DNA of 62,810 nt, the filler included, from Rhabdomonas costata (lineage: Eukaryota): assembly GCA_019059605.1 (NCBI GenBank). It is 34 parts of 34 records of this genome, joined end to end, with 100 filler letters (N's around TTAATTAATTAA, not from the genome) between each part and the next. Parts side by side here need not be neighbours in the genome. Positions count along the whole stretch, not along the records: positions 57,362 to 59,111 come from JAHMHO010009619.1; 33 more parts are not named here. One strand, given 5' to 3'. Shown here one piece after another: positions 5,202 to 62,810 of the stretch; the stretch's first letter is position 1; each line of letters begins with the position of its first letter. The notes beneath the pieces were generated by a model that was given only the letters and a program-made list of their open reading frames with translations, had not been told where the DNA came from and searched no databases. A program made the position numbers and the translations under genes.

Positions 5202-5562
5202 CTGGGAGGTAAGGATGCACGCCACCGGTGTATTGTTAATCGTGTGTGTTCGTATGTGCAGGAAGGGGTGAAGAGTGGGGGTTGCGGCGCTCACTCAGGT
5301 CCATCATATTCGCTGTGGTTTACGCTTGATGCATCTGGACATGCAGAGATCTCCCCAGAGTGTACCAAATCAGAATCAACATCGCTGTAAAAATAAAACT
5401 GACGATATGGTGGTGTGCACATAGCACTGAATAAAGCACAACCCCCCCAAACACACCCACAANNNNNNNNNNNNNNNNNNNNNNNNNNNNNNNNNNNNNN
5501 NNNNNNTTAATTAATTAANNNNNNNNNNNNNNNNNNNNNNNNNNNNNNNNNNNNNNNNNNNN

Positions 5563-7120
5563 GTGCGTGGTGAGGCTTAGTTGGCATGGGGCGAGTCATG
5601 CGCGTACCTCACGGGTTGTCACACGTTCATGACCTCATGTATCCAGAGACACAACACCGTACATGCCATGGTAGGAACGTAGGTGCATAGTTTCCCTCTT
5701 AATTCTACTATGTGTGTGTTAGAACCAGGTGTTGGGATAGGCGTAAGGTGAACGTCACCATGGTTATGCTGCCGATGCACAGTGTGGTACGCCATAGTAG
5801 TTGGAACCTGTTACTATCCATTCACTCAGTGGTGGAGGTGGTGGTTGGCATGTCCTACGGTAGCACCTCATGTAGAAGTAGTGTTAGCCTAACGTTGGAT
5901 GTGCTCTACCATACTCTCTCATCCGGTGGTGGTGTAAGGCGGTGGTAGCGTTACTCCTACCCACTCACCTTCCAGTAGTGGTACCGTAGCGTATTCCTTG
6001 TGTGTACGTTGTGTTATCCTATTGGTAGCGTGGTGGTGATGGCGTGATGTCATTGTCGCTTTGATGCCATCGGTGGTCATGGCGTGGTACACTGGTTGTG
6101 GAAATGCCTACCGGGTGATGCCAAGGCCCAATGGAAGGGTTGATGCGTAGTTGAGGTCGCCGAGACCCACATGCATGTTGATGCCCTTCTCTTGATGTCA
6201 TGGTCTCACCTCACCTCATTCCTCACACAACCATTGTCGTCACCACCATCACCCTTCTGTCCACGTGACATGATGGTACGATGATGCTGATGGATGCCAG
6301 GTTCCACGTCATGCTCTGTGTCCATGGCACCACCACACCCAGCGATGTCAGTTTGAAGGTGGGATGGTCCAGCGGAGCCCAGCATGCAACGTGAAATGGT
6401 GAAAGCTACCGACCCTAACCCTGATTTTGTAGAGTGAGGGATGTTGATGCGTAGAGGTATCAAGGCATAAGGCTGATGCTGCATGCTGATTTCGATGATG
6501 TCATGACCCTACGCAACGAAACCAACCCATGGTGTGGTGAAGGAACCCAACGTAGTGGAGTAAGAGAGGCGATACAGTGGTCACTCCCTCCGACACCCTA
6601 ATGTGCCTACGTTCTCTCCAAACTCACTAAGAGAAAGAATAGAGAATGCGTGGTTCATTCCACGACTGACGTCGGTACACTCACATGGTCACACTCGCTC
6701 TTCTCACTGCGTTTGATGTCGCTCCTGTTCCTTGTTGTTGGTCGGTCACACTGGCTCATGATGTTCGCTCCTGTTCTCTCCTGTTGTCATGTTCCTCCAG
6801 TCGACATTCATACTCGCTGCGCTCGTTATCATGTATCCATGTCGTCACTAGTCACTGCGTTCCTTGTTCCTCCTTCTATGCGTTCTTTCGATCACGGTTC
6901 ACACTCGACATTCACTCCGTTCATGTCTACTGTTCACTGGTCGCTGCTTCACATTCACACTCATACTTGCGATGCTCCTGTTTATGTTCCTCCTGACGTC
7001 ATATTCACTCTCAAACTCGCTTCACTTTGTTGCGCTCCTGTTCGTGTTCATGTTCCTCTTTTTAGCCACGGTTATAGGGTTCACACTTGAAACTCACTCG
7101 CGATGGTTGTTCATGTCTCC
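5563..7120 (-). mobile_element. Decayed repeat-family element (copy A) with pseudogenised ORF and hairpin array
   Basis: 6062-6175 aligns by eye with 57526-57640; minus frame HVGLGDLNYA...ITR*A...YHAMTTDGI; degenerate pyrimidine-rich repeats at 6680-7110. Confidence 0.55.
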
Positions 7121-7414
7121 TGCCCAAATTTTCCCACCAAAACATCTCCCACAAGATCACAACCGGGCACCGAGATGGCTGTGACCTAAACTGAGTGATT
7201 CGGACTGATCCGCGGCCCAATCCTCAACAAGGATAAAATCCCACACAATTTGCCAACTGGATGAAGCCGCTATTAAGTAGGAAGGGTAAAAATAAAGGGT
7301 CCACAACAACAACCNNNNNNNNNNNNNNNNNNNNNNNNNNNNNNNNNNNNNNNNNNNNTTAATTAATTAANNNNNNNNNNNNNNNNNNNNNNNNNNNNNN
7401 NNNNNNNNNNNNNN

Positions 7415-9502: not shown

Positions 9503-10940
9503 GGGTGCACACGCTGATGTTCCATCCCTTCAACCCCTTGCTGATCTCCTCGGACTCGATGGACGGTGTGTTGCGGGAAACACTGGGAAGGGAAATGAGC
9601 CACTTTTTTCCCCAAAACAACCGGGGCACTAGCCGTTGTCATCGGTCCCAGGAAAGGATTTTTCCTCACACAGAAAATTCCCAAATTGCTCAAGCTCGAA
9701 ATATGTGACCGTGTGACCATGTGTGCAGGTGTGTTTAGGCGAAAGAGATTCAATGGACACGATTGTTTCATCTTCCCAAGAACGGGTCAATTGTCGTAGC
9801 TTGCCAAGCAGCCGTGGATTCACAGGAAAGAAACTCCAATCCCTCATTTACCCTCCTGATGCGCTTCAACACTGTGTTTTTCTTTGGCATGTCCGCATCG
9901 GTCGCTTTAGTGCCCACAAATGCTTTTCCAGATGTTCACTACCCAACTTTGTGTAAGCATTTGTCCCGCATGATGATTAAAATCTAGACTACTTTTTACT
10001 TCAAAAAATCTGTCGTAAGTTAAAAAGTTTGCGCGTTTTGTCACAAGACCGCGGTCTCGAGAGTGACATATGGATCGCAAAGGTTTTTCTTTTCGTGGCA
10101 CAAGGGGTTCATGCGGTCACAGAGGTTTCCTTTCGTTCCAGGATTGCCAGGATTGGCATGTTTTGGTTTTTATATTGGGATTTGAAATGGGCTGGCGGGG
10201 CAAAGGGATTTACGTGTGGAACCTGGAGGAGCTGCGCGCTGTGAACGCCTTTCGGGCAACTCGAAACCTCGAGAACGACTGGAGGTCCTATCAGCCCGGT
10301 ACACGCACATACATACACAATCACTGAACGGATGTGTGTGGCCACGCGCAAGCCACGGGTCCACGGAGACTTCAGAGGCAGGACGAAGCCACCGTGGGCA
10401 ACAGCTTGTGCGCTATGCGGCCGTTACACGCTGAACGGCTGTGGATCCGTGTCACATCTTAGTCACTACGTGTGGGTGTGCAGGCGGGTAGGGTCAAAAT
10501 GTAACCTTGAAAAAGGTGTTCGGGGCAAAAAGAAACGTTATATTATAACGAAAACTTCCATGGTTGCAAACAACCAGGAAAAAGAAGCGATTCAGAATGT
10601 ATTGAAATGTAAATAAATAATAAAGCTTTCTTTCAATGGTGAACTTAGGTAATAAAATACATTTCGGAAGGGATCCATTCCATTCACTCACGGGGTGAAA
10701 ACCGAAGTTCTGTTGGTCTCGGTAACCAGAACATTGTCCTTTCTTCGCAAAACGTATGTGCATCTCTTCCCCATACCCTTTGGCTGAAATAAAGCTTCAG
10801 CTCTCAATAGGGATGCTCCAGCAACGGGTGTGAACGTGCGTGACTCTGTATGTGTGCATCACTACGTGGGCAGACGGCACGGCGGCGTCGCTGAAGAGCT
10901 TCATCTCCCTCACCCTTGCCAACCCCAGCAAGGAGCCCAG
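9503..10940 (+). CDS. RAPTOR/KOG1-like WD40 region (TORC1 subunit), partial
   Basis: Exons 9503-9565 (HTLMFHPFNPLLISSDSMD), 10206-10298 (GIYVWNLEELRAVNAF) and 10874-10940 (SFISLTLANP) are phase-compatible and follow the RAPTOR FHPFxP...VWN...NxF...I..l..N pattern. Confidence 0.55.
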
Positions 10941-11603
10941 GCATTTCTTTTACCGACGTCGTCACCCCTTGCGGATTTGTTTCCATTGTTCTGACACGTT
11001 CAACGTCAGAAAAAACANNNNNNNNNNNNNNNNNNNNNNNNNNNNNNNNNNNNNNNNNNNNTTAATTAATTAANNNNNNNNNNNNNNNNNNNNNNNNNNN
11101 NNNNNNNNNNNNNNNNNCGGCCGCTCGGCGTTCCCCAGGTCTACCTTCACCTCTCATTCTGTATTAGAGTCAACCTGGCTTTCAAACAGCAGAAAGGTGG
11201 TGTTCGCACCCCCCCATGTTTCATTCGATTCTCCCCCACTCTCTCGCTCGCTCGCTTTCTCTGGTGACCTTGAGGTCACCTCGAGGTGGAAGTTTCCGTG
11301 CTTCCCTGCGCTGTCGGTTGCGCTCCCCTCGGTTGGTGGCTGCGCCGGGGTCGCTGCGAGGGTCCCCCTCACTCTGTGAGAGCAGACGCATATATCTCAG
11401 GTGGTGAAGGTCAGTGAGCAGACGAGCACGCGTGAATTCAGACAACAGCATATGGAATTACATTTTTGTTGTGGAAAGATGCGGATCGAAGGCTTTTGAA
11501 GCCAGTGGAGCGATATGAACGTGGTCTATCCTTCTGTTGTGAGGGAGGAGTTGAAGTGTCCACCTGTTTGTGGGGCCCATTGGACGCTGGCTGCTCTGCG
11601 CAG

Positions 11604-12868
11604 GTGGTTTGCACGGACACCATCAGTGGATTTGAGCTGATGGACGGGAGCATCCGGCTATGGGTCATTGAGGGGTATGTGTTTAGTGCGTGCTACGGCG
11701 CTGCCCGCATGCAACTTCTATGCCAGTGGTAATTAGATACGTGTGGGAAATTCGTATGTGGCCAAGAGATCTTCCACGTGGATTACTCTCGAAATGCCAC
11801 GAGAGCAGTTTTGTGGGTTTGTTGTGGTACACAAGCCTTATTTCCCATTTATCTACAGTGCGGCGTGTACTTCCTTTTTACGACTGTGATGCTAACTGCT
11901 GGAATTAACAGAAAAAAGTTATCGGTTTCATCCACTCCGTCCTTCGTCAGTTGGGTCGATTTTACTTACAAGCTACACACCAGGTCAAATGTTTAGTTCT
12001 CGCCTTCTTAAACCTTGGCCCGGGTCCTTGAGTATTATATCACTTTCCTCCAGATCATAATGCCATCACTTTGCCAAAAAAAAAATCAGGCCTTTTGGAT
12101 TCTAAAGGGGAAAATCGGTAGTGATTGGACAGCGAACGGGTCTTTTCTGCTGGTCTACGTCCTGCTTTCTGAATTAACTCGGGACGCAGCGCGTAGACAC
12201 CCTCCTGTACTGTTTCGTTCTGCTTCGTGTGAATCAGTCTCTTCGGCGTCACCCAAGGTTCTCTGAGACTTGCGTCGCCACGGTTCGTGCCGCTGTGGTG
12301 GCCGCCGTGGAGGACTGGGACCAGGTGCGGATCTTGCTGAACCCCATGCTGCCCTTCGCGCAGAGGCTGTACCTGGGCTGGCCTCGCCTCACCGTCACTG
12401 CCGTGGTGAGCCCGGAGAAGCCCCCGCCAGCGGCGGACCTCCCAGGCATGCACTGTGCTTATCTGAGCTATTCTCCACTGTTGCCCCCCGAGACCTTCAT
12501 CGCAAGATATGTGCACACGAGAAACCCAATACAGAGCCGGTCTGTTGGAAAAGTGGTTTTGTCCCCGCTTGCACAGCGCTCCCGATTCACATCATTCGTC
12601 GCTGCATGTTCAATGTCTAAATCTGTGAACGATGTACCTCCTGCAGTTCCTGTGTCATCTGGGCAACGTTGCTTTGCCTGTGAATAGTCCGAACAGCCCG
12701 TCTCTTATCGTTCTAGTGACCAAATGCACCATGTGTTTGTATGCATGGATGGATGGGTGGGTTGGGTAGCTCCCGTGGAGGAGGTTACCGTACCGCCCAC
12801 CACGGCTGCGGGTAAGGGCAAGCCCCCGAAGACGTCAAAGAAGCCTGGCACGGCCTCCGCGGCCACCG
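11604..12868 (+). CDS. Multi-exon fragment, possibly CFAP92/KIAA1257-like flagellar protein
   Basis: Exons 11604-11674 (DTISGFELMDGSIRLWVIEG), 12258-12445 (VRILLNPMLPFAQRLY) and 12770-12868 join in frame; family call from recalled motifs only. Confidence 0.4.
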
Positions 12869-12974
12869 NNNNNNNNNNNNNNNNNNNNNNNNNNNNNNNN
12901 NNNNNNNNNNNNTTAATTAATTAANNNNNNNNNNNNNNNNNNNNNNNNNNNNNNNNNNNNNNNNNNNNGGGGTG

Positions 12975-13149
12975 TGGGCACTATATGGACCCCCCCTATC
13001 GAGTGCACCTTGTTTTGGGACCCCCCCCCCCAACGCGCAACACACCCTCAATGGATCCATACCTTGGGTATGTAAAATGCACCGTGAATGGAGGGGGCGG
13101 GGGTCCCAAAACAAGGTGCACTCGATAGGGGGGGTCCATATAGTGCCCA
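12975..13149. mobile_element. MITE-like element with ~50-bp terminal inverted repeats
   Basis: tgggcactatatggac(c)ntatcgagtgcaccttgttttgggacccc is mirrored by ggggtcccaaaacaaggtgcactcgata(g)ntccatatagtgccca around a ~65-bp spacer. Confidence 0.8.
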
Positions 13150-13442
13150 TACGCCTCGGGGGTTTCGTACTTAGAATGTGTTCCACTGCATTTTGTCTGC
13201 GCCAGTTTTTTTTAACTCACCTTTTTTGGAGCTTGGGCTTCTGCTCTTCGGATTGGCACGCTGCTGTGCAATAGAATGAAACCACCACGGCCCCACTGAT
13301 TGGCCTGCGAAGGGCACCTGCACAGTGATATGTCGAAGAATCCATTGGAAGGTGTGGAATGTGGAGCATCGTTTTTTTCGGGCATCTTCACAACTTTGCT
13401 CTCGCCAAAAGGATTGGGCATCTTTTCCCCCTTTTCTCAAAG

Positions 13443-13981
13443 CCGGCGTCTGATGGCCGCTGCTGCAGAGAGTTATGTGCTTGGTCTTGCCCAAGATGCG
13501 CTTCGGGTTACCACCGGGAGCGGCGTCTCTTCCCCCGAAGATCCGGCGAAGTCCAAGCCGAAGGTTTTTTTTTTGGGTTGACCTACCAACTTATCCTGTT
13601 CTTTTATTCTTTGTTAAAAGGTAGCCTTGAACTGAACTTGCAGAGTTCTGATTCAAATGCGGCCAGCGCCCTCGTTTATTCCTCTGTTTACGCGATTGCA
13701 TGCCGATCCGCCATTGTTGAATTTTTTTTTGATCTTTTTTGTGAAGTCTTGTGTTTAGCTTGGAACCTTCACTATTTACCTCCGATAGAGGCGTCTCTGC
13801 GAAATTTCGCGAAGCTTACAATCATTCGTGGAATATTTATCCTGCCCCCTCATGTCTGTACACCTTTTCGGACCTTTTCTTCCCCCCCTGCCTTTTTTTT
13901 GGTTTTTTTTTGCAGGTGTTGACTCTAAAAGCTATTTCTGAGGTTTTATCCGAAAGGGGTGTCATCTTTCCTGCACCGTGA
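13443..13981 (+). CDS. TAF10-like histone-fold protein, C-terminal two exons
   Basis: Exon 13443-13563 RRLMAAAAESYVLGLAQDAL and exon 13916-13981 VLTLKAISEVLSERGVIFPAP* resemble TAF10 RLxxLAAQKFISDIAxDAL and TLTMEDLxxALxEYGI; phase-0 GT-AG intron. Confidence 0.5.
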
Positions 13982-30402: not shown

Positions 30403-31060
30403 CAGCAACGCAGCACTCATCGGGTGTACAGGTAAACGAGGTGCAGCGTCGAGCGACAGGGATCCGCATCAACCCGCAGGATACGTTGGAGTCGGTGCAA
30501 ACTGGAGCTGAAACGCAGAAGCGCAGCGACTGTGCAGTATTTGGCAAGAGTTTGGTGCGTGGAGCACGCTCTACCAATACTTGAACTTCAACACAAATGC
30601 CAACCCTCGGTCTCGTGGATATGTTCTACCGAAGTCAACGCTGGATTCCTGGCATATGTGAGCAGGTGACCGGGCCGCCTAATTTTGCATTTAAGGATCG
30701 TGACAGATTTGGGAGACAGTCCCGAAGCTTGATGTACATATTCTGAACCGTAATACCCCAAAACTCTTCTGAAAGCAGCACTGTTTGCTGCCAGTCTTCA
30801 AACCATGCCCGATGCCTAGAGATTATGTGAAAGGCAATAATTCTTAGCAAAAACAGAAACTTACAGACAGTAAGCATAGAAAAATGGTGAGACTACGAGG
30901 ATCCCTTGATCATAAGTCACAGCAAAACAGTGACCAAAGTACCTACCCTCCACACAGCACTCCTCGGGAGTGCAAGTGAGTAGGCGGCACCTCCGGCTCG
31001 CCGCGTCGGGCATCAACAACTCAGTGGGCCCACACCAATCCAAATCTGCGCATGTCGGAG
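30403..31060 (-). CDS. Cys-rich repeat extracellular protein, two paralogous exons
   Basis: Exons 30947-31060 (PTCADLDWCG...RRCRLLTCTPEECCVE) and 30403-30507 (PVCTDSNVSCG...RRCTSFTCTPDECCVA), six Cys each, both phase 1-1. Confidence 0.75.
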
Positions 31061-31638
31061 CTGAAAAATCACAGCAAAGGACGTACAACACGAAGTACCC
31101 TGCAAAGCTCCAGGACAATGCAAACTACAGCAAAGCAATGTCCCATCTTTTAAAACTTTTGAATACAGAAAAAAGACTCTCGTAGGATTGGCAAAAGCGC
31201 GATTTTCGGACCGGTCCATTGAAAGTGCATTATCGAACAGCAACACTGAGTAAACTCACGCGTTACACAGTTGTAATTTGCGTTCTTGCACGGCGTTTGA
31301 GCATGTGATCCCCTCCAAGATCGGGGGGCTCCTATTACCCACAGGCACCTCCCTAAAACCCACAACCNNNNNNNNNNNNNNNNNNNNNNNNNNNNNNNNN
31401 NNNNNNNNNNNTTAATTAATTAANNNNNNNNNNNNNNNNNNNNNNNNNNNNNNNNNNNNNNNNNNNNGGGGCCTGCCCCTTCTTTCCATTCTTTTCCGTT
31501 TTTGTTTTATTTTCTCTCATCATTCAAGCAGATGTTTGCATTTGCTCTTCCCACTCTTCCAAGTTTATTTTGTGACATGTGCGAGTGCCGTGAAGGAGTC
31601 TGTGGTATCAGGAGATCCTCTTAATTTAATTCTCTGAA

Positions 31639-32681
31639 ATGTACCGCAACCAACCGTACGGAGGACCTGGGCCTTATGGCGGCCCAGGTCCTGGATACGG
31701 TGGTCCTGGATACGGTGGTCCTGGGTATGGTGGACCTGGGCCCTATGGTGGACCTGGGCCCTATGGTGGGCGAGGACGTGGACCACATGGTGGGCCCGGA
31801 CCATATGGTGGTCCTGGTCCTGGTCCTGGTCCTGGGCCCTATGGTGGGCGTGGACCTAACGGTGGTACCGGACCTTATGGGGCCCCACCTCCACTCCAGA
31901 ACCCTCAGTATGCCCCGGGCTTTGCTCCCGGTGCCCAGGTGATAATTGTTGGCACTTCCAATGCGCATTTGCCGCCCCGAGTCGCAGGTGTTGCTGTTGC
32001 TTCTGCTATGTAGGGGCTCCCTCTCTCAGCTCTTTGTCTCTCCCGCTCTTTACCGCAGTGATCAGTCGGTAATACTGCAAGCTGCATGGCGTCGTCTCAT
32101 TTCTGCTACATCCTACGGCTCCTCCGCATCCTTTCAAATGCTTAACAAGTGCCCTTCCATGATGTGTTTTGGGGATGCAATTTCTGGTTATTTCCTCTCT
32201 CTCTCTCTGCCTCCTAATTGTGAGTTTGTGATTCTTAGATAACCTCCACAGGCTTGTCCCTTTGAAGCATTGCCATTCGCACTTTGCCGCATTTGAAAAA
32301 CAATGCCCACTGTTCAGCAGTACAAAGCATGTAAGCTTCCCTAACTTTTTCGATGGATTTGATCGGACTGAGGAGCAGATGCCGCGTGATGAAAACGCCA
32401 CAGTGGGGTATTCTCTGGGTGACCTAATAGTTGGGGTGCCCGTGGGGGCCACCGTGGCTTGGAGCCGCTTCAGCGTGACGGTGACCTGCCCGTCCTGCGG
32501 GCATGCCGGGCCCACGGTGGTGCGGTACGAGCACGGCCGCGGAGCGTGGTTGATGTGTGTGGCGCTGTTCCTTGTGTTCTGGCCTCTGTGCTGGCTGCCG
32601 TTCTGCATGCGGGAGTTCAAGGACAGCGTGCACTTCTGCGAGCGTTGCAACGCGTTCATTGGCAGGCGGTATTTTATATGA
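31639..32681 (+). CDS. LITAF/SIMPLE zinc-ribbon protein with Gly-Pro-Tyr repeat N-terminus
   Basis: First exon from 31639 with GGPGPY/GGPGY repeats; last exon 32431-32681 VTCPSCG...hydrophobic stretch...LCWLPFC...KDSVHFCERC (CxxC...HxCxxC). Confidence 0.88.
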
Positions 32682-34867: not shown

Positions 34868-35922
34868 CTGGGCACGCAATAGGGTCAATGGGACGAGGGT
34901 GGCTTTCTTTTCACTGCATGCCGAGGGTGAAAGTAGGAATGCGAACGTGGGTCAGCGCTGTATACGCTCTGAAAAAAAGATACTAACCTTTGTTGGGAGT
35001 CACCTCGGTCCACCCCGACAAGGAGGTCTCGTGTCCCACGTGCGTTCCCGCCGGTCGCGGTGGACNNNNNNNNNNNNNNNNNNNNNNNNNNNNNNNNNNN
35101 NNNNNNNNNTTAATTAATTAANNNNNNNNNNNNNNNNNNNNNNNNNNNNNNNNNNNNNNNNNNNNGTTGTTTTTGGCACTCTTGTGTCCCATTGGATGCG
35201 TCAATGCTGACCACCTTTTGTTGCCGTCAGACTTACAGCCCCAAATCCGGACAGCAAGCCACAAGGCAAAAAAGGTGGTCAGCATTGACGCATCCAATGG
35301 GACACAAGAGTGCCAGCAACAATGAGCGCACACAACAGCGGCATTTAATTTGCTAAGCATAAAAATCCGCGGACACTGATGTGTCTTGATTCCCGGAACT
35401 AAAAACTTTTTTGAAGACATTCTTCCTGAAAGGGAGGGAACCTCTGTGATTAATCCGGCTAAACATTCATGTGGGAAACTTGTTGAATTCCGGCCTTTTT
35501 CAAAGCGGAAGGACAACTTTTTTTAAATTAAAAGGACACGCATCCGTGCATCGCATAATTCCATAAACACCATGTCGCCAAAAGAAGGAGGAAGCACGAG
35601 CAGCCTGGCGGAAAAAACTAAATTCTGCTCAGTCCTGATCAATTCTGATGTTTTCCAAAAGGAAAGGACATGCTTGCTGAACAAAAGGGGGTCGGAAAAT
35701 AGGCATCCAGTGGGCCACAGCCGTGTCAGCCCGTGAAACCGCACTCCCAGCTCCACAGGGCATTTTATGAAAAGGACCCGACAACACCAGCTTGTTGTGA
35801 GGCGTGAAAATCCATGCGCAATCGAAACTAAGACACTTTTGTTGGTACTCTTAGTTAGGGTGTCGTAGAGTTTGTGCGGTGGGCCCCTCGAAATATGCAC
35901 GGGAGGAGGGAGGCGTCCGCAC

Positions 35923-37013: not shown

Positions 37014-37148
37014 TGTGGACAAAGATTGACGTTCGGGCACAGCGAGCTAAGGTAGTTCTATTTCCAAAAATCTCCGGAGGGATCGAGGAGTTTTTTGGAA
37101 ATAGAACTACCTTAGCTCGCTGTGCCCGAACGTCAATCTTTGTCCACA
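37014..37148. repeat. Perfect 57-bp inverted repeat with 21-nt spacer (MITE or amplification fold-back)
   Basis: 37014-37070 is the exact reverse complement of 37092-37148. Confidence 0.9.
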
Positions 37149-47889: not shown

Positions 47890-48554
47890 CTGAAAATGCA
47901 AAATATATCAAATTAGCGCACGAGCGAAAGCAACCCAAAAATGACACAAAATAGGCACAACCCCGCAGGCAACACATGTACGATTCATTCCACCTCCGTA
48001 AAACGCCGATCACCCAACAACNNNNNNNNNNNNNNNNNNNNNNNNNNNNNNNNNNNNNNNNNNNNTTAATTAATTAANNNNNNNNNNNNNNNNNNNNNNN
48101 NNNNNNNNNNNNNNNNNNNNNGGGGGGTGGTGTGAACAAATTGGTGGTTTTCGACCTCTATTGAAACCTCTGAAAGTGGACGGTGGCTCATAACATCTAT
48201 CTCAGCATTTGTTGATCCCCCCAATTGACGGTGTTTGGTGCAGAAGGATAAATCTCCATAAGAGGAAGTGGGACATTTGCCTAAGGTTCGGAAGTGGCCT
48301 GTGAAGCCAGAAAGTTCCACAGAGTTGTGTGAGTGGCGTGTGATGGCGGAAGATCTTTCAGAGGAGATGTCATAGGATTGTGCAGAAACAACGGTCAACA
48401 GTATTTGGAGAGTGGCACGTAATACCCCCGTTCCGTTGTTCGTCTTGCCATTACAGTGGAACTTAAGGGAGGTGATTGAGTTACTTTCAGATCTTCCAGA
48501 CCATCACCACCTCATCCGTTGATGTTCCTTCCGTTGTGGGTTTGGAATAAACAG

Positions 48555-49572
48555 ATAAATGCTCTATTGGATTCATGAACTTCAGATTTGTTTACAAGTC
48601 AATAAGTGGTACGAGATTCCGTTTTTTGCATCAAAGGCAAATGGGTAAGGACTACCTGTGTAATGACTACCCATGTTGTGCGAACTGTTGGAACGTTGTG
48701 TACCATGCCGATTGAGTTGTTTTTGAGAGAGTGATTCAGGCGGCAATTCCAGTTGTACTGGGCTATCCGTTTTTTACGATGCTAAATCCGCAGATTGATT
48801 GGAAGCGTAGGTATGTCAAGGTTTGGAAAGGCGGAAGGATTCACGGCATTCAGGCACTTTCAGCAGTGGATTATTACATAATTACGTGTCCAAACACAGG
48901 GATTATGGTGGCAGATCCGGAGGAAGTTTTTCCAGAGTTTCAACAGATCTGTATGGAAATGGTTGTGCTCCTGTGTTCCATAGTAGCAGTGGAGGATGGA
49001 AGCGACACTCCATATTACCCAGGCATCAACACGGCTAGATGTCGTTTGGGTGCGGAAAGAAGCAATCCTGAAGCGATCCTTGCGGAGTCTCTTCCATAGT
49101 TGATTCCAGATGTTGTTATTTCCACAGTAGAGGTGGAAGAGGTCACTTTGACTAAGCAGTACCAGTGATTCATAGTTATGGCTCAGGAGACTAAGTGGAA
49201 TGTCAAAGGAAGTTGCTAGATTCGCCAAGGAAGTAATTTGGGAAGTTAATCAAGGAGGTGGAACACAGCATTTGTGGCACACCTTTACCAACACCTCCAG
49301 ATATCGGGACGTTAAATCAATAATTTTCTTTCAACTGCCAATAAAACTACCCAGTGCATGAGAAGATGCTAGTTTTAGTGGACACGTTACAAGAATGAAA
49401 GCATTATCCTTTGGGCTCAGATGTAAGAGTTCACGCGGATAACTTAGCGTTAAGCTATTTGCCTTCGCCAATGCATGTGAGTTGGTTGTATAGACTACAG
49501 GGGTATACTTTGAAGATCTACCACATTCACGGAAGTCACAATGTTTCTGCGGATGCCATATCTAGGCACCCA
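48555..49572 (+). mobile_element. Ty3/gypsy pol relic (protease + RNase H, most of RT deleted)
   Basis: INALLDS* (protease), VVLGYPFFTMLNPQIDW, then NYPVHEK...*KHYPLG...HADNLALSYL...IYHIHGSHNVSADAISR (RNase H); stops and frameshifts. Confidence 0.88.
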
Positions 49573-52012
49573 GTGGACAAGGCGAGTCAAGGTTATGCAA
49601 AGATGGAAGTTTTGTAGAGACTGGCGACGTTGAGGTTCAATGGACCCTGTGTGCACCTTAATGATGGCAGCAGCATGTGATCAAGAGGATTGGTGGTCCG
49701 ACTACTGGCTTGACCCAGTAGTGTGGAAGAGGTATTTCAACTTGACCACTGCTAATGTTTTGTACCCTACAAAGTGGCACCATGGAAGAATTTGTGAGCT
49801 GTGGATTTAGATGTGATTTCGCGGTACCACAATTTTCCCGCATCGGGGCATTGTGGTACCGCAAAACCACANNNNNNNNNNNNNNNNNNNNNNNNNNNNN
49901 NNNNNNNNNNNNNNNTTAATTAATTAANNNNNNNNNNNNNNNNNNNNNNNNNNNNNNNNNNNNNNNNNNNNGGTGTGGGGGTTTTGGACAACGGATTTGC
50001 ATGTATGCCGTGGTCTGAGTGTTAAGCTACAGCTGCGGCGCCTGGAAACGTGCCCATTTGACGCAATGTTTGGTTCTTTTCAGAAACCCGCTTGCACAAC
50101 TGATGGCGAAGCCTCGTTGGGTTCGAGAAAAGACCACTTGTAGCGGCGCACCACCCGCTCCGTTCCGTCTCGTGTGTTGATGTATTCGAAATTTGTACCG
50201 CAAATAATTCCACATTCTCATTACGAACGCATTGAACTCAGTCGCCTGGTCCAAAACATTCGCGGCCCAATTGGCCGCTTACCTTTCTCATTCGTTGCTC
50301 CTTCAGAGTCTGCCCAGAGTCAGTCATCGCACGTTGCACCTCGGCTTCTCAGCACTTCCCGAATCCCGCGCTAAGCATTTCCGGACCTTAGCTTCAAATT
50401 TCATCCCTTTAGCAAACCCTTCGCGTCGATGACGCGGCTTTCACGGTGTAGCTGTAATGCTCAGCTTTCGGCACGACACCACAGAACCCGAGCATTTCTG
50501 AAAATGGCCAGAAAATACCAATACTAACCGAATGCCCACCCCCGTATATACCAGTAGGGCTCACCGTCGGCACCAAGGAGCAAATGCAAGAACGACACTT
50601 GCTCACAAGCATGCGCGAGAAGAATTCTGCGAAAGATGAAAATAACACATCACACCCATATATGAATGTGGCGTTCCGCGGGTGACAGGAACACCGATGC
50701 TATTCAGCGACTCAACCCAACAAAACCAAAAACCCAGCATATCATGGGTAATATGAGTTGAGAGGTGATGACAGAGCATGACTCTCGATCGGATATCAAG
50801 GACAAAGGACACCACCGTGTCCCATTACTAGAATGTGTCAGTAGCTACACAGGCGCCAACAAAGCGGAACCCTCATCATCGAGAACACCAACCACTCCCA
50901 ATGAGTACCCTTTTGCAGAATTTATCACAGTCCAAATCTGCAAATAAAAAACCATGCGAAAGTCCTCCTCCGCCTGTCCAACAACAACAGGTGCCGAAAC
51001 CAGTGGAAACTTATTTTTTAATTTCAAAAAGAATAATAAAAACACGTACACCGTCAACCCCAAACCTCGTACTATTCAGCTCCAGACAGGACTTGAGCGA
51101 ATGAAAATAGTCCGACAAAAATTTCAAATTTTTTCATATTATTTCCACCTAAATAGAAGACAAATGTGAAACATTCTCCTCAATAACCACTTTTCTTGAG
51201 GACCACGCAGGGGATGTGCACAGCACTATTTTTCAGAACGCTGTCGCCGAGCTATACACAGAAACTGAAGAAGGAAATGCTCACACGGGCAGCTATATCC
51301 CGCTAAGGCGAGCGGTGTCTGCCACACATAATAGACAGAATACGCCGCAGCCCCGAAACACAAAAAGCTGTACAGCCACAAAACTTTGTTTACGCGCACA
51401 ACTGTGTGGAGTGCTCGCGTGTACAACGCAAGGGGAACGAACGGAAAGTGGTGCGTGGGGGAACCGAAACACAGACAGGCGGGGGACGGGGTGAGCGAAG
51501 GCCCTTCCCTATTGTCCGCCTTTTGATAAAGGCTCCGCTCCCCACTGAGGCGCAACATGGGGGAAGGTGCTTGTCTTGTGAAATGGCTAAAACAAAAACC
51601 GCGGCAACTCGCCGATCTGTACATGGACCTCCCACCGCCCGCAGCGTCACACAAATCAATCCCAAGCAACGCAACAGAACATCACCGATGCGATGAAAAA
51701 AACAAACGAAGAAACACAAACNNNNNNNNNNNNNNNNNNNNNNNNNNNNNNNNNNNNNNNNNNNNTTAATTAATTAANNNNNNNNNNNNNNNNNNNNNNN
51801 NNNNNNNNNNNNNNNNNNNNNTTTTTGTTGGAAGGGGGTTGTTTTTGTGTTTCATATTGCTTTTTCACCACTATTCGACACACTGTGCCCAAACACGTTC
51901 ACAGAGCCGTCAGTGCAGTTGAAGCAACTCACGGACAGAAAAAAAGCACAGAAAGTGGTGGCCTTCCCACAGGTTGCGGTGCAAATTCTGTTCAGGTTTA
52001 AGGGTTGCATTC

Positions 52013-57361: not shown

Positions 57362-58390
57362 TAGAGGTGTCACAACCCCGTAAACCCTTCGTCTGTGTAG
57401 TGGTGGTGGTAGTAGTAGCATGGTGTCACATCGTCGCTTCTCACCTGGGTGGTGTCATGGCATCCTCTCTCCTTGGCATCGGTTGTACCCTACCGTGTGA
57501 GTCCAGTGACTGAGAGTGGATGTTGTGATGCCATTGGTGGTCAAGGCGTGACATCCATGGTCGTGTTAGGCTGACCGGGTGATGCGTTGACCCTGCTGTG
57601 GGAGTTACGCGAAGTGGAGGGCGCCGAGCCCGACATGCCACGTTCCCTTCCCCTCACGTTGTCATCCTCACCTCAATGCCTTCCCTACCCATGCTGTTAT
57701 GTCTTGCTCTGTGTCAAGGGCGCATCTCACCCAACCTACCTTCGAGTGTGAAAGTGGTGAAGTGGTGATGGTGCCATGAGGTCAAGACATCAGGCCAATA
57801 CCTGCATGTTCCTACCCTTATGCGTACCTCTACCCTCCCCCTGCATTCCCGAGGCAAGGGTGTGAGATGCTGGCATTCCTGACGCTCCTTCTGATGCAGT
57901 GTAAGGGTAACGCTGATGCAGTGCGTAGGAAGGGTGTGTAGGATGGGTGCCAGGTGAAAGGTGAAAAGTGGGACGTCAGAATTCCACCGCTAACCCAACA
58001 CCGAACCCACCAACATGAAGTGCATTGAGAGTGCATGATGTTGGATGCCAAGGCGTAGAGTGAAGGGCTCCGCAGGAACAGAGGGTGCGATTCAGTCGTC
58101 ACACTCGACTCTCGCGATGCTCGTGTCTCCTGTTCCTCCATGGTCGACTCTCACACTCGTCGCTGCGCTCCTCCTGTTCGTGTCTCCTGTATTGGTCATG
58201 GTCGTATGCTGGTCGTCGTCACTCACTACGTTCGTTCCTCCTCCTAGTCGACATTCATTCTCACTCGCTACGCTCGTTCGTACTCATGTCTCCCTGGTCG
58301 CTTCGTCATTCTCGCTACGCTCGTATTCCTCGCTCCTACTATCCCCACACACTCTCCCTACGGTCGTGTTCGTGGTGCCCGTACAGTTCT
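57362..58390 (-). mobile_element. Decayed repeat-family element (copy B) with pseudogenised ORF and hairpin array
   Basis: Minus frame GTWHVGLGALHFA*...ITRSA*...HALTTNGI, homologous to copy A; hairpin repeats at 58095-58390. Confidence 0.55.
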
Positions 58391-59211
58391 GACCATCTCG
58401 GGCGGCGAAAGCCAGAGGCAAATACAGATGCATCACAGACGGCTGGGTGGCGGGTGGACTTCGACCCCAGACATACGGCGGTGGAGTCTGAAGGTCAATG
58501 CACACGAATAAAAAATAGCACCAACAGCAGGCAAGTGCCCACCTGGGTGAAGCAGGGGGTGGTGGGAGAACATGTACTCCTCAGAACCTTCACTGCAGAC
58601 ACCGTTCTCACCCGACGTGGTGTGCATAGACCCAGAGACTCTTTCTGTCTCAGAAATCCAAGAAAAAGTCAGAAAGTCAGAGATAAAAAAAATTGCCTTG
58701 ACAATGAACTCATATGTGCAAAAAAAAAACATTACGCAAAAAGCATGACAATGAATCGTTCCAAGTGTCATCCCAAGGAAGATCCCATGTTGGAAGCTTA
58801 CGGGGTCGCTCGAGTGGGGCCTTCCTTAGTGGTTCCCAGAATCATAAAGCAGTATAAGCAGCTGCACAATAAGAAGCTGTCAATGGGGAAAAAAAGAGCG
58901 GCACTGAGGCTGATGGGGCCTCACAAGTTAACGTCGTCTATCCAGCAAAGAAACATGTCCGTTTCTCGTCGGGACCATGTGAAGCAAAATAAGGCAGCTT
59001 GGGAAAGCTTGAATTGCCGCAAATAAACCCTACCACAACCACCGCACAACAACACATTACAAAGCCCCTTGGTGACATCAGCGACACACTGCCAAAGCAG
59101 CAAAAACCACANNNNNNNNNNNNNNNNNNNNNNNNNNNNNNNNNNNNNNNNNNNNTTAATTAATTAANNNNNNNNNNNNNNNNNNNNNNNNNNNNNNNNN
59201 NNNNNNNNNNN

Positions 59212-60960
59212 GGCTGCTTTGGTAACCACCCCAGTATGGGCACCGGGGAAGGACCACCTTCGATGGCCTGTTTCAGCCTGGAGAACACAAAAGACTCGTC
59301 TTTTCTGAGTGCAATCATTATTTCGTTTGGGTTCCCCAGGTGCGGATGACTTCTTTGACGACGGCTTTTGCGGTGTCATTCCCGCACTTAAAAAAAAAAG
59401 AAACAAACCAAATATAAATCTAACCTGAACATATGAACGTACTGAACTAACTGAAACCTGTTCTTCTCTTGCTGTCCGTGTGGAGGCTTTATTGCTGCTC
59501 CAATTCTGAGCATTCAGGATGCAGGGGGAGGGGGGGGGGCGAAATTTTGCAACGGGCCGACGCGAAAAATGCGGTGTACAAATAGGCAAAATCCGAATTG
59601 CGTTTCAAGCCAAAATTCCGCCTGGGGTCGAATTTGTCCTCAACATCCCTATTTTTTCATCATCCCTATCAACATTCCTATTTTTTTCCACCTCAGACAT
59701 GAATAAATGCCAAAATTAGATTCAGCAGAAAAACCGGACATCGAATATGTCAAACAAAAACCTGCAAAAAAAAGTTGCAGAAATACGCATTGGACTTTTC
59801 GTCCCCTCTTCCCTCTTCAAGCGCAAACTCCGCAGAAACCAAAAAGCACAAACCAGAGGAAGTGGGTGGGACCGGCAACCTTGTTCAGAATTACACCGGC
59901 CACGTGCACCTCAGGGTCGAAGGTGACAAAACCGTGCAAAACAGCAGCGGCGCTCCTGTACGTGGTAGGGGGAAATACAGGCTGGGGGGGAGGATGACTC
60001 CACTATTTTACTATTTACTAAACAAACTGACACGAACAAAAACGCACGAATCTTCTCCTCAAAACCTTGCCATTGCACCACAATCAATGATAAGAATAAC
60101 GGGTAACTCCAGCCATTTTGCGATTTCAGCGGTGGAACCAACATCGGAACAGCCGTCTCGTCCGTCGAACAGTCCCATGACACCCTCAACCACAGCCAAT
60201 TCCGGGCGACCAAAACGTAGAGCTCGATAGAAAAGAGACCGTACTGTCGATTTTCCACCTGAAGAAGAAGTGCGCCCTGTGTCGAAGTCAAGGATATTGA
60301 CGACCGAAGGGTTGTGATTACTATCACAAATGCACTTTTTCCGTGCAAGTGTGTAGGTGATGCGTTGGCACACTGCGGTGAAAAACACTGCAACCTATGT
60401 CTAAACTTTGAAGCTCGCCGGACTAAGGCCACTATCCCTTGTTGTCTCCTCTCTCACTCCAACACCGTCCAACGATAGTTGTGCCCAGCTTCTGACGTGC
60501 TCAAACCCACCATCCTTTTGCGAATGTGCTGCCGAAACACCGCCGCTACGAAGCCTTAAAGAAAAAAAAGACAAGACAGCGCCCCCAAAACTACCAGCCA
60601 GAAAGCCATCCAAATTCACCGAAGGAGCACCGCAAGCGAGACTGTGGTGCATTCCATCAATGAAATCAGGTCTAAAGGAAAGAGAGAAGAAGGCAAGAAA
60701 GGAATGCAGCCCGCCAGTGCTGACGGCTCTACGTCGTGCAAATTCAGCCCATACAATGCAAACCCTGTAATTGGGACGACCCACCGACAGCAGGGTGTGA
60801 AGTAGCAAACAAAAACAAGCACCACAAACAGGCACAGGCACAAACACCCCACTTTGAAGGGCTGGACAGAATGTCCCCGGCGGCGGAGTGCTGCCATGAG
60901 TCCCGTGGCAACAGACGTTTTTCCCGAGCCACTGCATGGAGCCGCAAGCAAAACACAGAA
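59212..60960 (-). CDS. cbiA: Cobyrinate/hydrogenobyrinate a,c-diamide synthase (CbiA/CobB family), N-terminal half, five exons
   Basis: Exons 60848-60960, 60595-60671, 60066-60258, 59854-59955, 59212-59277 splice in frame via four GT-AG introns: [56 protein letters not shown]. Confidence 0.93.
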
Positions 60961-61060: not shown

Positions 61061-62810
61061 GTTGGTTGGTAGTGTAGGTGTAGCAGTAGGTGTAGCAGTA
61101 GGTGTAGCAGTAGGTGTTGTTGTTGGGCTAATCGGGTGTTGTGGGCTAATGCTGTGCTTGTGTCTGGGTTCAGGGCTAATCATGTGCTTGTGTCTGGGTT
61201 CAGGGCTAATCATGTGCTGGTGTCAGGGTTCTGGGCTAATCACGTGCTGGGCTAATCTGTTGTTGTTGTCCTTGTCCTTATGCTTAGTGTTACGCGTTAC
61301 GTTACTGTTAGTGTTCCTGTTTCTGTGCGTAGGGTTTGTGGTAGTGTGGTTGTTGGTGCTTAGCGTGTTGGTTGATGCGTTGATGGTTACGGTGTCAGGG
61401 GCTGTGGTGCGTTGGGTTGATGGCTTGTTGTGTTGAGGCGAAGGGTGTCATGGTCGTAGCGTTGGTTGTAGCGTTGGTGTCACTGTTAGGTCCGAGGGGT
61501 GTGGTGTGATGGCTTGAGGGTTTAGCGTGAGGGTCAGGAGATCAAGAACCCCAACATCTCAGTCCCCCTGTAGCCTCAGCCCTCCCTTGGCATCGACCGT
61601 AGGCAGATGATAAGGAGAGGGATGAGTGGTGAATGCTACGTACCACCTTAGGGTGGGGAGTAGCATGAACCACCACATCTAGGGAGCATCGAGCGTAGCG
61701 AGATGCGACCAGCAAAGAACCCCACTTTACTTGTCGGCCCTCACTTCAGTTCGTGCCTCCCCCTTCTCTTTTTACTCTTTTAACCCATACGTGTCCCCAA
61801 GTCGAGGAGCATCACGTATCGGGTCTATGCATTGGGTCTTGAAGGCATGAAGGCATGAGTCACGCAGTGGGTCATGCCGTAATAGAGAGTAGAAGGCATC
61901 ATCACCCCAAGGGCCACCGGCAGGTAGGTTTAGCCTTTACTCCCTTTTAGCCCGTAACCGTGAAGCGGTGGACCACGCATTTAGGAGCGAGGAACGCAGT
62001 GACGACCGACATCAAGAACATCTTTTATGCCTTAACCCCTCACTTGTCGGGTCTCTCAGTCCTTCGAGCCCCTCCCCTTCACTCTCTACACCTGTCTCTT
62101 CGTTCCACACCCCACCATAAGGTGGTACGTGTCACTCCGACCGGGCGTAGCCACAGGAAGAGAACTCAGGGTAAGGTTGAGGTTTAGGTCTCACTTTAGC
62201 ACGTAGGCATGGTCGGTACGGACATGCCGGAGTAGTGAAGGCACCTGCGGTAGTAAAGGCGTCAGCGAGCCATGCGGAGTAGGAGGCAAGAAACATCCCC
62301 TGGGTCTTTCTCTTACGTGGGCATCTTTCACCCCTCATAGTCATGCTGAGTTACTGCATTCTTCACTCATAGTCATGCTGATACGTTAACCCTCACACCC
62401 TACCTCACGAACCCCTCGAAGCATGAAACCCACACAGAATGCCTAAACCCACAACCTTAGCCCTCAACACGTAAACCCTCTGACACCAACTACCCTACAG
62501 CCATGAACCCACGAAGCAAGAACACAACAAGCGCTAACCCTACGACCCAACGACCCAAGAACACGAAGCCTGAAACCCACGTAGCATGAAACCCTCGTAG
62601 CCTGACACCCTGAAACCTGAGACCGTAGCACCATGACATCCTGAGACCTTACGCACTGACCCTCACCCTCCAACACAAACACTCCCTGAGAGCCTCAAAC
62701 CCACACACCCTTCGCCGAAACACAACAAACCCTCATCCTACGCACAACAACAACAGGAACACTAACGGTAACGCTAAGCACTAACAGGAACACATACAGG
62801 TACAGAGAGC
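61061..62810. repeat. Fold-back-like element: GT-rich left arm, CA-rich right arm, 12-bp and 30-bp tandem repeats
   Basis: gtaggtgtagca x3.5 (61074-61117); 30-bp unit x4 (61143-61255); 61301-61321 matches the reverse complement of 62752-62772 at 20/21. Confidence 0.7.

What the first reader, a model, noticed from the sequence alone, without database searches (positions are those of the whole stretch)
58095..58390. Covarying GA-X-C-GNA-G-X'-GA mini-hairpin shared by four non-genic contigs
Seen: the 11-mer TC-X-CT-N-CG-X'-TC (plus strand) occurs at 58160, 58223, 58265, 58312, 58355; at 6814, 6852, 6912 (6704 with one mismatch); at 834 and 1733; and as the reverse complement at 61691 and 61992. 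X and X' are complementary in every listed copy and use three different pairs (G-C, A-T, C-G) while N varies, so structure is conserved over sequence. Several copies have extra paired flanks (gcatc/gatgc at 61686-61706, gacat/atgtc at 6907-6927). Established: C-GNA-G triloops (GCGAAGC type) and tandem sheared G-A pairs form very stable single-stranded DNA hairpins, used in ssDNA origins and hairpin promoters. Inference: a strand-specific cis signal of a mobile or viral element family with a single-stranded intermediate, clustered near the element end.
Basis: partly seen in the sequence, partly recalled or inferred. Interest (0 to 1): 0.72.

Follow-up and report, generated by a model that had tools for sequence, protein, structure and literature searches.

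The report
Purine-strand hairpin arrays with replication-origin cap
Three related non-coding contigs carry arrays of short imperfect hairpins whose constant 11-base tip also caps hairpins at the replication origin of small bacterial plasmids, which points to a signal read on single-stranded DNA, though its job here is not shown.

Summary
The window is 34 unrelated ~1.75 kb contigs joined by spacers. TCNCTNCGNTC occurs 17 times against 1.3 expected. The real family is three contigs, not four: 5563-7314 and 57362-59111 (homologous over ~1 kb at ~68-70%) and 61061-62810 (opposite orientation). The fourth contig's two hits are one hit duplicated by a 910-bp tandem repeat.

In 13 family copies X/X' is always complementary (6 G-C, 5 A-T, 2 C-G). 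So is the pair just outside the TC/TC dinucleotides. Pairing continues about 16 bases from the loop. The further mismatches are almost always TC/TC again, which reads as tandem G·A on the purine strand. Coding (Ser-Leu-Arg-Ser) is excluded by frame.

The same 11-mer caps variable perfect stems in many phage and metagenome contigs. It also sits beside the nick site of pC194-family rolling-circle plasmids and in the terminal repeat of an archaeal virus.

Best reading (0.45): a strand-specific hairpin signal on single-stranded DNA in a repeat or mobile family. No Rep, polymerase or capsid gene, element end or nick site was found, and nearest-neighbour folding gives no significant stability. An RNA structure or a functionless dyad repeat remain open.

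The parts
58095..58390 (-). Array of six hairpin units in contig 57362-59111. The pyrimidine (TC) form is on +, and the proposed folding purine strand is -.
58112..58122 (-). Cap variant TCGCGATGCTC on +. The stem pairs are kept but the loop is not G-N-A on the purine strand.
   Evidence: 29.4 bits
58160..58170 (-). Cap, X/X' G-C, flanking pair G-C
58223..58233 (-). Cap, X/X' A-T. The outer stem alternates Watson-Crick pairs with TC/TC blocks.
58265..58275 (-). Cap TCGCTACGCTC, whose purine strand is identical to the pC194 cap. The hairpin is about 46 nt with a 5-bp outer stem.
58312..58322 (-). Cap TCGCTACGCTC
58355..58365 (-). Cap, X/X' C-G
6680..7130 (-). Homologous pyrimidine-rich array in contig 5563-7314. 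Caps lie at 6704 (one mismatch), 6814, 6852 and 6912. A GAT-loop variant at 6967-6977 lacks a paired flank.
61587..61613 (+). Hairpin in contig 61061-62810 with the purine form on +. The cap has one mismatch (TG for TC on -), C-G at X/X' and four flanking pairs. It scores only 8.7 bits with the model.
61683..61709 (+). Best-scoring hairpin: cap plus 5 perfect outer pairs, with the purine form on +
   Evidence: (33.9 bits)
61984..62010 (+). Hairpin, X/X' A-T, with the purine form on +
61733..61760 (-). Opposite-orientation relative with a 4-nt loop. It was not in the training set.
   Evidence: 22.2 bits
57526..57691 (.). Conserved block shared with 6062-6229 (68% identity). It shows the two contigs are copies of one element of at least 1 kb.
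61061..61540 (.). G/T-rich arm of short tandem repeats, imperfectly complementary to the A/C-rich arm 62380-62810

Best explanation
Each 40-60-nt unit of these arrays is an imperfect inverted repeat. Its purine-rich strand folds into a hairpin. The tip is a C-G-closed G-N-A triloop on one more Watson-Crick pair. Below it sit a tandem G·A/A·G step and a further stem in which Watson-Crick pairs alternate with more tandem G·A steps. The 11-base tip (GA-X-C-GNA-G-X'-GA) is held constant, the paired positions covary, and the arrays are kept in diverged copies of a non-coding element at least 1 kb long. I read this as a strand-specific cis signal used when that strand is single-stranded DNA. The most likely use is to nucleate a structure that starts or positions complementary-strand synthesis or origin recognition, as hairpins carrying the same cap do next to the nick site of pC194-family plasmids. 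Shown: the motif excess, the covariation, the purine-strand logic of the mismatches, homology of two contigs, and the same cap at known replication origins. Inferred: that the hairpin forms in vivo, that the nucleic acid is DNA rather than RNA, and the function.
For: There are 17 matches against 1.32 expected. X/X' and the flanking pair are each paired in 12 of 12 copies with three pair types each. Covariation score is 0.528 against 0.183 in shuffles (0 of 500 reach it) and 0.02-0.17 in slid registers. A 13th copy (61595) is also paired at both. Pairing at 7-16 bases from the loop centre is 62 of 130 against 20-36 of 130 in 12 shifted registers. Outer tandem mismatches are TC/TC in 19 of 24 blocks, with CT/CT in 0. 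The two homologous contigs carry different pair types at positional counterparts (58223 A-T against 6814 G-C, in register). With RNA parameters, the purine strand's minimum-energy fold contains the proposed hairpins at 58223, 58265 and 58312. The same cap sits on variable perfect stems elsewhere: 68 of 435 and 86 of 625 motif hits in fetched viral and metagenome loci have at least 4 adjacent pairs, against 0-2 in five permuted controls. pC194 has one copy against 0.01 expected, directly 5' of the nick region on the nicked strand in the purine form. Three relatives keep the cap on different stems. The origin fragment that includes this palindrome initiates, while the shorter one had negligible initiation (PMC7072734, passages).
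Against: Nearest-neighbour DNA folding predicts the proposed hairpin as the optimum for only 1 of 13 copies on the purine strand, and no z-score is below -1.4. The whole purine strand folded as RNA has z -0.47. These energy models may lack terms for this loop (my recall, not tested), so the test is weak but not in favour. One copy in each homologous contig has a GAT/ATC loop that fits neither strand's G-N-A rule. There was no replication, integration or capsid protein family on the 11 ORF translations from these three contigs that I scanned. There is no nick-site excess (27 against 34.7 expected) and no RS_B. Outer stems are much weaker than in the plasmid and phage examples. Copies in one array are related by duplication, so the 13 copies are not 13 independent trials.
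Confidence: 0.45

Rival explanations
1. The same hairpins act in RNA. The purine-rich strand is transcribed (spacer, long non-coding RNA or retroelement untranslated region), and the G·A-zippered stem-loops bind a protein or mark processing or packaging.
For: Covariation cannot tell DNA from RNA. Tandem sheared G·A steps are common in RNA (recalled). With RNA parameters the purine strand's optimum holds the proposed hairpins.
Against: No Rfam family matched at gathering score or at E up to 5. The z-score is -0.47. The constant C-GNA-G tip is the DNA mini-hairpin motif (PMC13037366), and the same cap lies at DNA replication origins. In phage-like contig L099, all 10 copies are on one DNA strand across oppositely oriented gene blocks.
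Confidence: 0.2
2. A functionless degenerate minisatellite-like repeat. Its dyad symmetry is kept by mutational processes such as template switching within quasi-palindromes or gene conversion among units, and the apparent covariation reflects a few ancestral unit types copied many times.
For: Units lie head to tail, share TGGTCG-type starts and flank similarity, and A-T copies share flanks, so subfamilies exist. There is no thermodynamic signal and no linked gene.
Against: Templated correction should also have made the TC/TC steps complementary, yet they are constant in 12 of the 13 copies (61595 has TG/TC) and recur in outer stems (19 of 24). The core is nearly invariant while the arrays are ~65% identical between contigs. 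The same cap arose on unrelated stems in plasmids, phages and an archaeal virus.
Confidence: 0.2
3. An artefact of whole-genome amplification or assembly. The contigs begin with G/T runs and end with A/C runs, and several start with palindromes.
For: 21 of 34 contigs start with a G/T run of at least 8, and 21 of 34 end with an A/C run of at least 8, against 1.2% at sampled internal positions. Contigs 8, 20 and 21 begin with 135-187-nt palindromes.
Against: Two contigs that differ at about one base in three share the arrays with different pair types. The hairpins are short, imperfect and internal, and the same cap exists in finished plasmid and virus records.
Confidence: 0.05
4. A protein-coding repeat. 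TCN CTN CGN TC reads Ser-Leu-Arg-Ser, and X, N and X' are the three fourfold-degenerate third positions.
For: In the 320-codon open frame 58064-59026, four of six copies read SLRS. All variable positions are 3 apart.
Against: In contig 5563-7314 the four copies fall in all three frames, and 58312 is out of frame. All three + frames are open there simply because the strand is purine-poor. Synonymous sites would not be complementary to each other, nor would the flanks. There was no Pfam family.
Confidence: 0.02

Closest known systems
Origin-adjacent palindrome of pC194-family rolling-circle plasmids (pC194, pBT469-2, a Mammaliicoccus lentus plasmid, pTB19)
   Same: The 11-base purine-strand cap is identical: GAGCGTAGCGA in pC194, as at 58265, 58312 and 61691. 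It caps a hairpin whose stem differs between plasmids, and it lies on the strand that becomes single-stranded.
   Different: The plasmids have one hairpin with a perfect 7-9-bp stem directly 5' of the CTTGATA nick region and a Rep gene. Here there are arrays of 3-6 weak, G·A-interrupted hairpins with no nick site excess and no Rep. pSTE1 has the GCGGAGC tip without the G·A step.
GNA-triloop DNA mini-hairpins at single-strand initiation sites and hairpin promoters (phage G4 origin, RSF1010 ssiA, phage N4 early promoters)
   Same: The tip is a C-G-closed G-N-A loop on a short G/C stem. The review gives GCGNAGC with Tm about 70-76 C, CCGAAGG in ssiA and GCGGAGC in N4 promoters (PMC13037366, passages).
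   Different: The flanking tandem G·A step is not part of that motif. The G4 complementary-strand origin has a GCGAAAGC tip and no match to the 11-mer near it: the only 2 one-mismatch hits in the genome lie elsewhere, against 4.4 expected. 5 of 13 copies here have A-T as the outer pair.
CS-6 (TAGCGT/A) of ssoA-type single-strand origins of rolling-circle plasmids
   Same: TAGCGA is contained in the cap when N is T, which holds in 3 of 13 copies. CS-6 is described as a conserved sso element (PMC4598088, passage). sso function is orientation-specific and RNA-polymerase primed (PMC5703833, passages).
   Different: RS_B is absent, most copies do not read TAGCGW, and there is no ~160-nt sso fold or plasmid context. 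Placement of CS-6 in the terminal loop is my recall.
Terminal inverted repeat of Methanosarcina spherical virus (protein-primed linear dsDNA)
   Same: The printed repeat contains TCGCTTCGCTC between G-rich and C-rich arms that can pair (PMC10342651, passage).
   Different: There is one copy per terminus, in an archaeal virus, and function is untested. I saw only the quoted repeat.
Single-stranded hairpin plasmids/chromosomes of Cladophorales chloroplasts, and palindromic organelle repeats of Haematococcus and relatives
   Same: These are 1-7 kb molecules or contigs with inverted repeats, many non-coding, GC 51-60%, with conserved 20-35-bp non-coding motifs (10.1101/145037, passages). The organelle repeats are GC-rich hairpin-forming repeats at ~50% GC (PMC7235400, passages). 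Contig 61061-62810 has imperfect inverted arms, and the three contigs are composition outliers.
   Different: No sequence could be compared, because the motif logos are in a figure that is not held and no such DNA is in the searchable collections. All contigs in this window are ~1.75 kb by construction. This is a lead only.
Purine-rich centromeric satellite fold-backs stabilised by tandem G·A pairs (Drosophila dodeca-satellite, human satellite III)
   Same: One strand forms hairpins in which G·A pairs alternate with Watson-Crick pairs (recalled). PMC11014236 on satellite III was seen only in the search listing.
   Different: Those are regular short tandem repeats. Here the spacing is irregular (38-63 nt) and TRF reports no array in 58095-58390 at score 40.

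Membership tests
GNA-triloop DNA mini-hairpin (GCGNAGC type) | G-N-A loop closed by a C-G pair on one strand | tested here: met
   12 of 13 family copies on the purine strand. 58112 has ATC instead.
GNA-triloop DNA mini-hairpin (GCGNAGC type) | Second pair G-C, giving GCGNAGC | tested here: inconclusive
   5 of 13 read GCGNAGC, 5 read ACGNAGT and 2 read CCGNAGG. The review also counts CCGAAGG as a mini-hairpin. A-T variants were not covered in the passages I read.
GNA-triloop DNA mini-hairpin (GCGNAGC type) | Unusually high thermal stability | not testable with these tools
   ViennaRNA DNA parameters give 0 to -4.4 kcal/mol and no significant z. Melting of oligos is needed.
ssoA-type single-strand origin | RS_B sequence | tested here: not met
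   0 matches with up to 3 mismatches to the RS_B printed in PMC4598088.
ssoA-type single-strand origin | CS-6 TAGCGT/A at the hairpin tip | tested here: inconclusive
   TAGCGA is present in 3 of 13 copies (58265, 58312, 61691). The others read CAGCGA, TAGTGA, CAGTGA, GAGTGA, TAGGGA or TAGGCA, and 58112 (GAT loop) reads ATCGCGA.
pC194-family double-strand origin | Hairpin followed by the CTTGATA nick region on the same strand | tested here: not met
   TCTTGATA with up to 1 mismatch gives 27 matches against 34.7 expected. The two near hairpins in contig 34 are on the pyrimidine-form strand.
pC194-family double-strand origin | Rep (HUH) gene on the element | tested here: inconclusive
   No Pfam family on the 11 ORF translations scanned from the three contigs. 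The contigs are only 1.75 kb, so a gene could lie beyond them.
Regular purine-rich satellite | Head-to-tail units of constant period | tested here: not met
   Spacings are 63, 42, 47 and 43, and 38 and 60. There is no TRF row over 58095-58390 or 6680-7130 apart from a 24-nt stretch (6762-6785) of period 10.
Protein-coding Ser-Leu-Arg-Ser repeat | All copies in one open frame | tested here: not met
   Copies occupy three frames in contig 4, and one of six is out of frame in contig 32.
Cladophorales hairpin plasmids | The published conserved non-coding motifs, terminal inverted repeats and chloroplast genes | not testable with these tools
   The motif logos are in a figure that is not held and no comparable DNA is searchable. 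Only contig 34 shows inverted arms.

The most novel reading that the evidence does not exclude
The 11-base cap GA-XC-GNA-GX'-GA is a widespread, so far unnamed single-stranded-DNA structural module. It is used at replication origins from Gram-positive rolling-circle plasmids to phages and an archaeal virus. This eukaryote-associated family is a new kind of replicon or mobile element (hairpin-plasmid-like or rolling-circle) whose non-coding region is built from arrays of G·A-zippered hairpins carrying that module as multiple priming or initiator-loading sites.
Probability: 0.15. Interest if true: 0.85.

Novelty: new variant of a known kind. Interest (0 to 1): 0.6.

Why it matters
If the reading holds, a very small structural element (two Watson-Crick pairs, a G-N-A loop and a tandem G·A step) is reused as a hairpin cap across plasmids, phages, an archaeal virus and an apparently eukaryotic repeat family. 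That would give a sequence-searchable marker for strands that spend time single-stranded. It could flag replication origins or new single-strand-replicating elements in fragmentary assemblies. It also makes a testable point about pC194-type origins: what is annotated as a palindrome, or as the 6-base CS-6, may be part of a folded 11-base module. If the hairpins are only a by-product of repeat turnover, the finding is still a clean natural example of stems in which tandem G·A steps alternate with Watson-Crick pairs.

Tried and rejected
- **Whole genome, sequencing-run look-up and earlier findings.** None was available, so genome-wide counts, copy number and presence in unamplified DNA could not be tested.
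- **Organism identity.** It was not resolved. A dinoflagellate spliced-leader search found nothing, there were no tRNA or Rfam hits, and the atlas look-up of a dehydrogenase-like exon was uninformative. Reading TAA/TAG as Gln gave longer frames that do not look like proteins.
- **Metagenome scan with the conserved 25-mer block.** It returned 0 hits.
- **Two- and three-cap pattern scans.** These covered viral contigs and metagenome contigs. No relative of the three contigs turned up by BLAST, apart from one 30-nt match to L250 that I take as chance. Many hits are tandem or coding repeats.
- **Rfam at permissive threshold on two of the contigs.** Only chance-level hits appeared.
- **Retropepsin guess for contig 48122-49871.** Pfam did not confirm it.
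- **Direct-repeat reading (AGCG-N-AGCG).** It fails for the A-T copies.
- **UNCG tetraloop on the pyrimidine strand.** The sequence fits in only 2 of 13 copies (58355 and 61595, the two with X' = G).
- **Hammerhead stem II and k-turn readings.** I rejected these by eye because the flanks are variable stems without the required constant bases or bulge.
- **Phage G4 origin.** It does not carry the 11-mer.

Full report
**What the window is.** The 62,810 bases are 34 separate contigs of 1,741-1,759 bases, joined by N44-TTAATTAATTAA-N44. 21 of 34 contigs start with a G/T-only run of at least 8 bases, and 21 of 34 end with an A/C-only run of at least 8. Only 1.2% of sampled internal positions show such a run. 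I read this as the remains of G/T-only degenerate amplification primers. That is my recollection of commercial whole-genome and whole-transcriptome amplification kits and was not verified here.

The source looks eukaryotic. An ankyrin exon ends at a GT and lies downstream of AG-ended non-coding sequence. A CbiA-domain gene is split into two pieces, and there is a guanylate-cyclase exon. Most long open frames have no family.

**The observation.** TCNCTNCGNTC matches 17 times against 1.32 expected. Five further exact matches were not listed (19754, 33544, 54737-, 54802, 62095). X/X' is Watson-Crick in 14 of 17.

The family is three contigs:
- Contig 4 (5563-7314) and contig 32 (57362-59111) are homologous. 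A 166-171-nt block is 68% identical, and the pyrimidine-rich arrays align in several registers at 63-68%.
- Contig 34 (61061-62810) carries the motif in the opposite orientation and shares unit features such as TGGTCG-type unit starts, but has no BLAST-level similarity.
- Contig 1's two hits are one site in a 910-bp tandem duplication. They score 10.5 bits with the model, against 22.9-33.9 for family copies.
- These three contigs, and less so contigs 27 and 1, are outliers in trinucleotide composition. Their genomic compartment is therefore uncertain.

**More structure than reported.**
- I aligned 12 copies in fixed register. X/X' is paired in 12 of 12 (G-C 6, A-T 5, C-G 1). The pair immediately outside the two TC dinucleotides is also paired in 12 of 12 (C-G 8, G-C 3, T-A 1).
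- For the seven-pair structure, 75% of cells pair against 54% in shuffles and 19-44% in slid registers. The covariation score is 0.528 against 0.183, reached by 0 of 500 shuffles.
- A 13th copy at 61595 (one mismatch, C-G, four flank pairs) was found by a one-mismatch scan. It scores only 8.7 bits with the model.
- That scan also gives a control. Of 54 one-mismatch matches in the other contigs, 4 have both pairs. Of the 11 exact matches in family contigs, 10 do.
- Pairing continues outward. At 7-16 bases from the loop centre, 62 of 130 cells are Watson-Crick, against 20-36 of 130 in 12 shifted registers.
- The outer mismatches are not random. Of 24 tandem pyrimidine-pyrimidine blocks, 19 are TC opposite TC and none CT opposite CT. 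Ten shifted registers give 0-9 of 21-33.
- On the complementary strand, TC/TC is the 5'-GA/GA-3' arrangement of tandem sheared G·A pairs, and T-N-C is a G-N-A loop. All constant 'unpaired' bases are thus the ones that make non-canonical pairs on the purine strand.
- The outer flanks played no part in choosing the copies.

**What it is not.**
- Coding was a serious rival, because X, N and X' are the third positions of Ser-Leu-Arg codons and four of six copies in contig 32 read SLRS in a 320-codon frame.
- However, the copies in contig 4 fall in all three frames. All + frames are open only because the strand is purine-poor. Synonymous sites would not pair with one another. No family was found.
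- Rfam has nothing.
- An amplification artefact cannot explain two contigs that differ at a third of their bases yet keep the hairpins with different pair types. For example, 58223 A-T sits opposite 6814 G-C, in register. 58312 against 6912 is one base out of register.

**Thermodynamics.** This does not help the case. With DNA parameters, only 1 of 13 purine-strand units has the proposed hairpin as its optimum, and z-scores run from -1.36 to +1.72. The pyrimidine strand behaves similarly. With RNA parameters, the optimum of the purine strand of 58095-58390 contains the proposed hairpins at 58223, 58265 and 58312, including a ~46-nt one with four G·A steps. Its z is only -0.47, and the pyrimidine strand has z +1.49. 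The special stability of C-GNA-G mini-hairpins is experimental knowledge (GCGNAGC, Tm 70-76 C; PMC13037366, passages). I believe it is not captured by these models, but I could not test that.

**The same cap elsewhere.**
- Pattern scans meant to find relatives found none by BLAST. They did bring in many viral and metagenome contigs in which the same 11-mer caps hairpins with perfect stems of different sequence.
- Of 435 motif hits in the viral loci, 68 have at least 4 consecutive adjacent Watson-Crick pairs. For the metagenome loci the figure is 86 of 625. Five permuted control motifs give 0-2.
- These loci were selected for holding two or three motif copies, and some are tandem repeats, so the fractions are not population estimates. 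The stems were not part of the selection.
- In L099, a phage-like contig (beta-helix protein; weak, sub-threshold portal match), ten copies with ten different stems lie at gene boundaries, all on one DNA strand, although the gene blocks point both ways.
- Some viral contigs carry tandem copies at their very ends (L243, L249).

**Known systems with the exact string.**
- A full-text search for the 11-mers found 203 papers, of which 25 were listed and two read as passages. It led to the pC194 origin fragment and to a viral terminal repeat.
- In the pC194 record, the motif occurs once against 0.01 expected. On the strand that carries the nick region it reads AAAGGATTTGAGCGTAGCGAAAAATCCTTT, directly followed by the TCTTTCTTATCTTGATA region.
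- Of four relatives fetched, three keep the cap on different stems at the same place (pBT469-2, a Mammaliicoccus lentus plasmid, pTB19). pSTE1 has a GCGGAGC hairpin without the G·A step.
- The paper states that the 105-bp fragment including this palindrome is the functional origin. A 65-bp fragment lacking its 5' half served as terminator with negligible initiation (PMC7072734, passages).
- The cap contains TAGCGA, the CS-6 element of single-strand origins (PMC4598088 and PMC5703833, passages).
- The terminal inverted repeat of Methanosarcina spherical virus, as printed, contains TCGCTTCGCTC between complementary G- and C-runs (PMC10342651, passage).
- Phage G4's complementary-strand origin has a GCGAAAGC tip and not the 11-mer.

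**Membership.** The family here is not an ssoA origin, because RS_B is absent. It is not a pC194-type origin, because there is no nick-site excess and no Rep. It works like those hairpins only by inference from the shared cap.

Two leads from the literature could not be tested for lack of comparable sequence. One is the single-stranded hairpin plasmids of Cladophorales chloroplasts, with abundant non-coding molecules and conserved non-coding motifs (10.1101/145037, passages; the logos are in a figure not held, and supplements are closed). The other is the hairpin-forming organelle repeats of Haematococcus and relatives (PMC7235400 and PMC6205361, passages). Contig 34's imperfect inverted arms of short tandem repeats fit a fold-back or hairpin-plasmid architecture, but contigs 4 and 32 show nothing similar.

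**Verdict.** The functional part (a single-stranded DNA signal of a mobile or viral family) is plausible by analogy with origins that carry the identical cap, but is unproven. I found no paper that names the 11-base module as such in searches. That is not evidence that none exists.

Noticed in passing
whole window; separators e.g. 1759-1858: The window is 34 contigs of ~1.75 kb joined by N44-TTAATTAATTAA-N44. 21 of 34 start with G/T-only runs of at least 8, and 21 of 34 end with A/C-only runs of at least 8, against 1.2% inside. This looks like remnants of G/T-only degenerate amplification primers (recalled, not verified).
   Followed up: partly
1-1758: Contig 1 is two copies (98.4% identical) of a ~910-bp unit. 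Each has a 172-nt imperfect palindrome, a 10-nt tandem repeat (AAATAGCCTA x5.5) and A-rich composition. It could be a satellite or a small circle read twice. Its two motif hits are one duplicated site.
   Followed up: partly
12969-13155; 35167-35322; 37014-37148: Three contigs begin with 135-187-nt self-complementary stretches (77-93% identity), as expected of inverted chimeras from amplification, or else natural palindromes.
   Followed up: no
61061-61540 and 62380-62810: Contig 34 has a G/T-rich left arm and an A/C-rich right arm made of short tandem repeats (12, 16 and 30 nt). The arms are imperfectly complementary to each other (patches of 70-93%), giving a fold-back-like architecture.
   Followed up: partly
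L099 (viral contig), 628-13922: Ten hairpins with ten different 5-8-bp stems, all capped by TCGCTNCGCTC, lie at gene boundaries on one DNA strand although the gene blocks point both ways. Similar sets occur in L094, L003, L205, L215, L250 and L251.
   Followed up: partly
L243 2-84 and 8066; L249 126-204; L053, L068, L093 near contig ends: Tandem or clustered copies of the cap lie at the very ends of viral contigs, including giant-virus bins. They may be terminal repeats or assembly breakpoints.
   Followed up: no
L237 (pC194) 1011-1038; L238, L240, L241: In pC194-family plasmids the palindrome next to the nick site is capped by the same 11-mer, with compensatory stem changes between genera. 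The 6-base CS-6 string lies inside it.
   Followed up: yes
58401-58415: Directly after the array, the + strand reads CGGCGAAAGCC. The same 11-mer forms the tip of the phage G4 complementary-strand origin hairpin (L257 3966-3976). It is on the opposite strand to the purine-form hairpins and may be coincidence.
   Followed up: no
60062-60958 (-): A CbiA/CobB-type nucleotide-binding domain gene sits in two pieces separated by non-coding sequence, which is unexpected for a eukaryote-like contig.
   Followed up: no
31630-32010: Contig 18 holds a Gly-Pro-Tyr-rich tandem coding-like repeat (GPGYGG type; 15-36-nt periods).
   Followed up: no
6812-6840 vs L250 7869-7897: A 30-nt stretch around the 6814 cap is 93% identical to a viral contig. 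This is probably chance extension of the shared 11-mer.
   Followed up: no
30511-30537 (-): A one-mismatch cap with 4 of 5 outer pairs lies in an otherwise ordinary contig (19.5 bits). It may be a dispersed copy or chance.
   Followed up: partly
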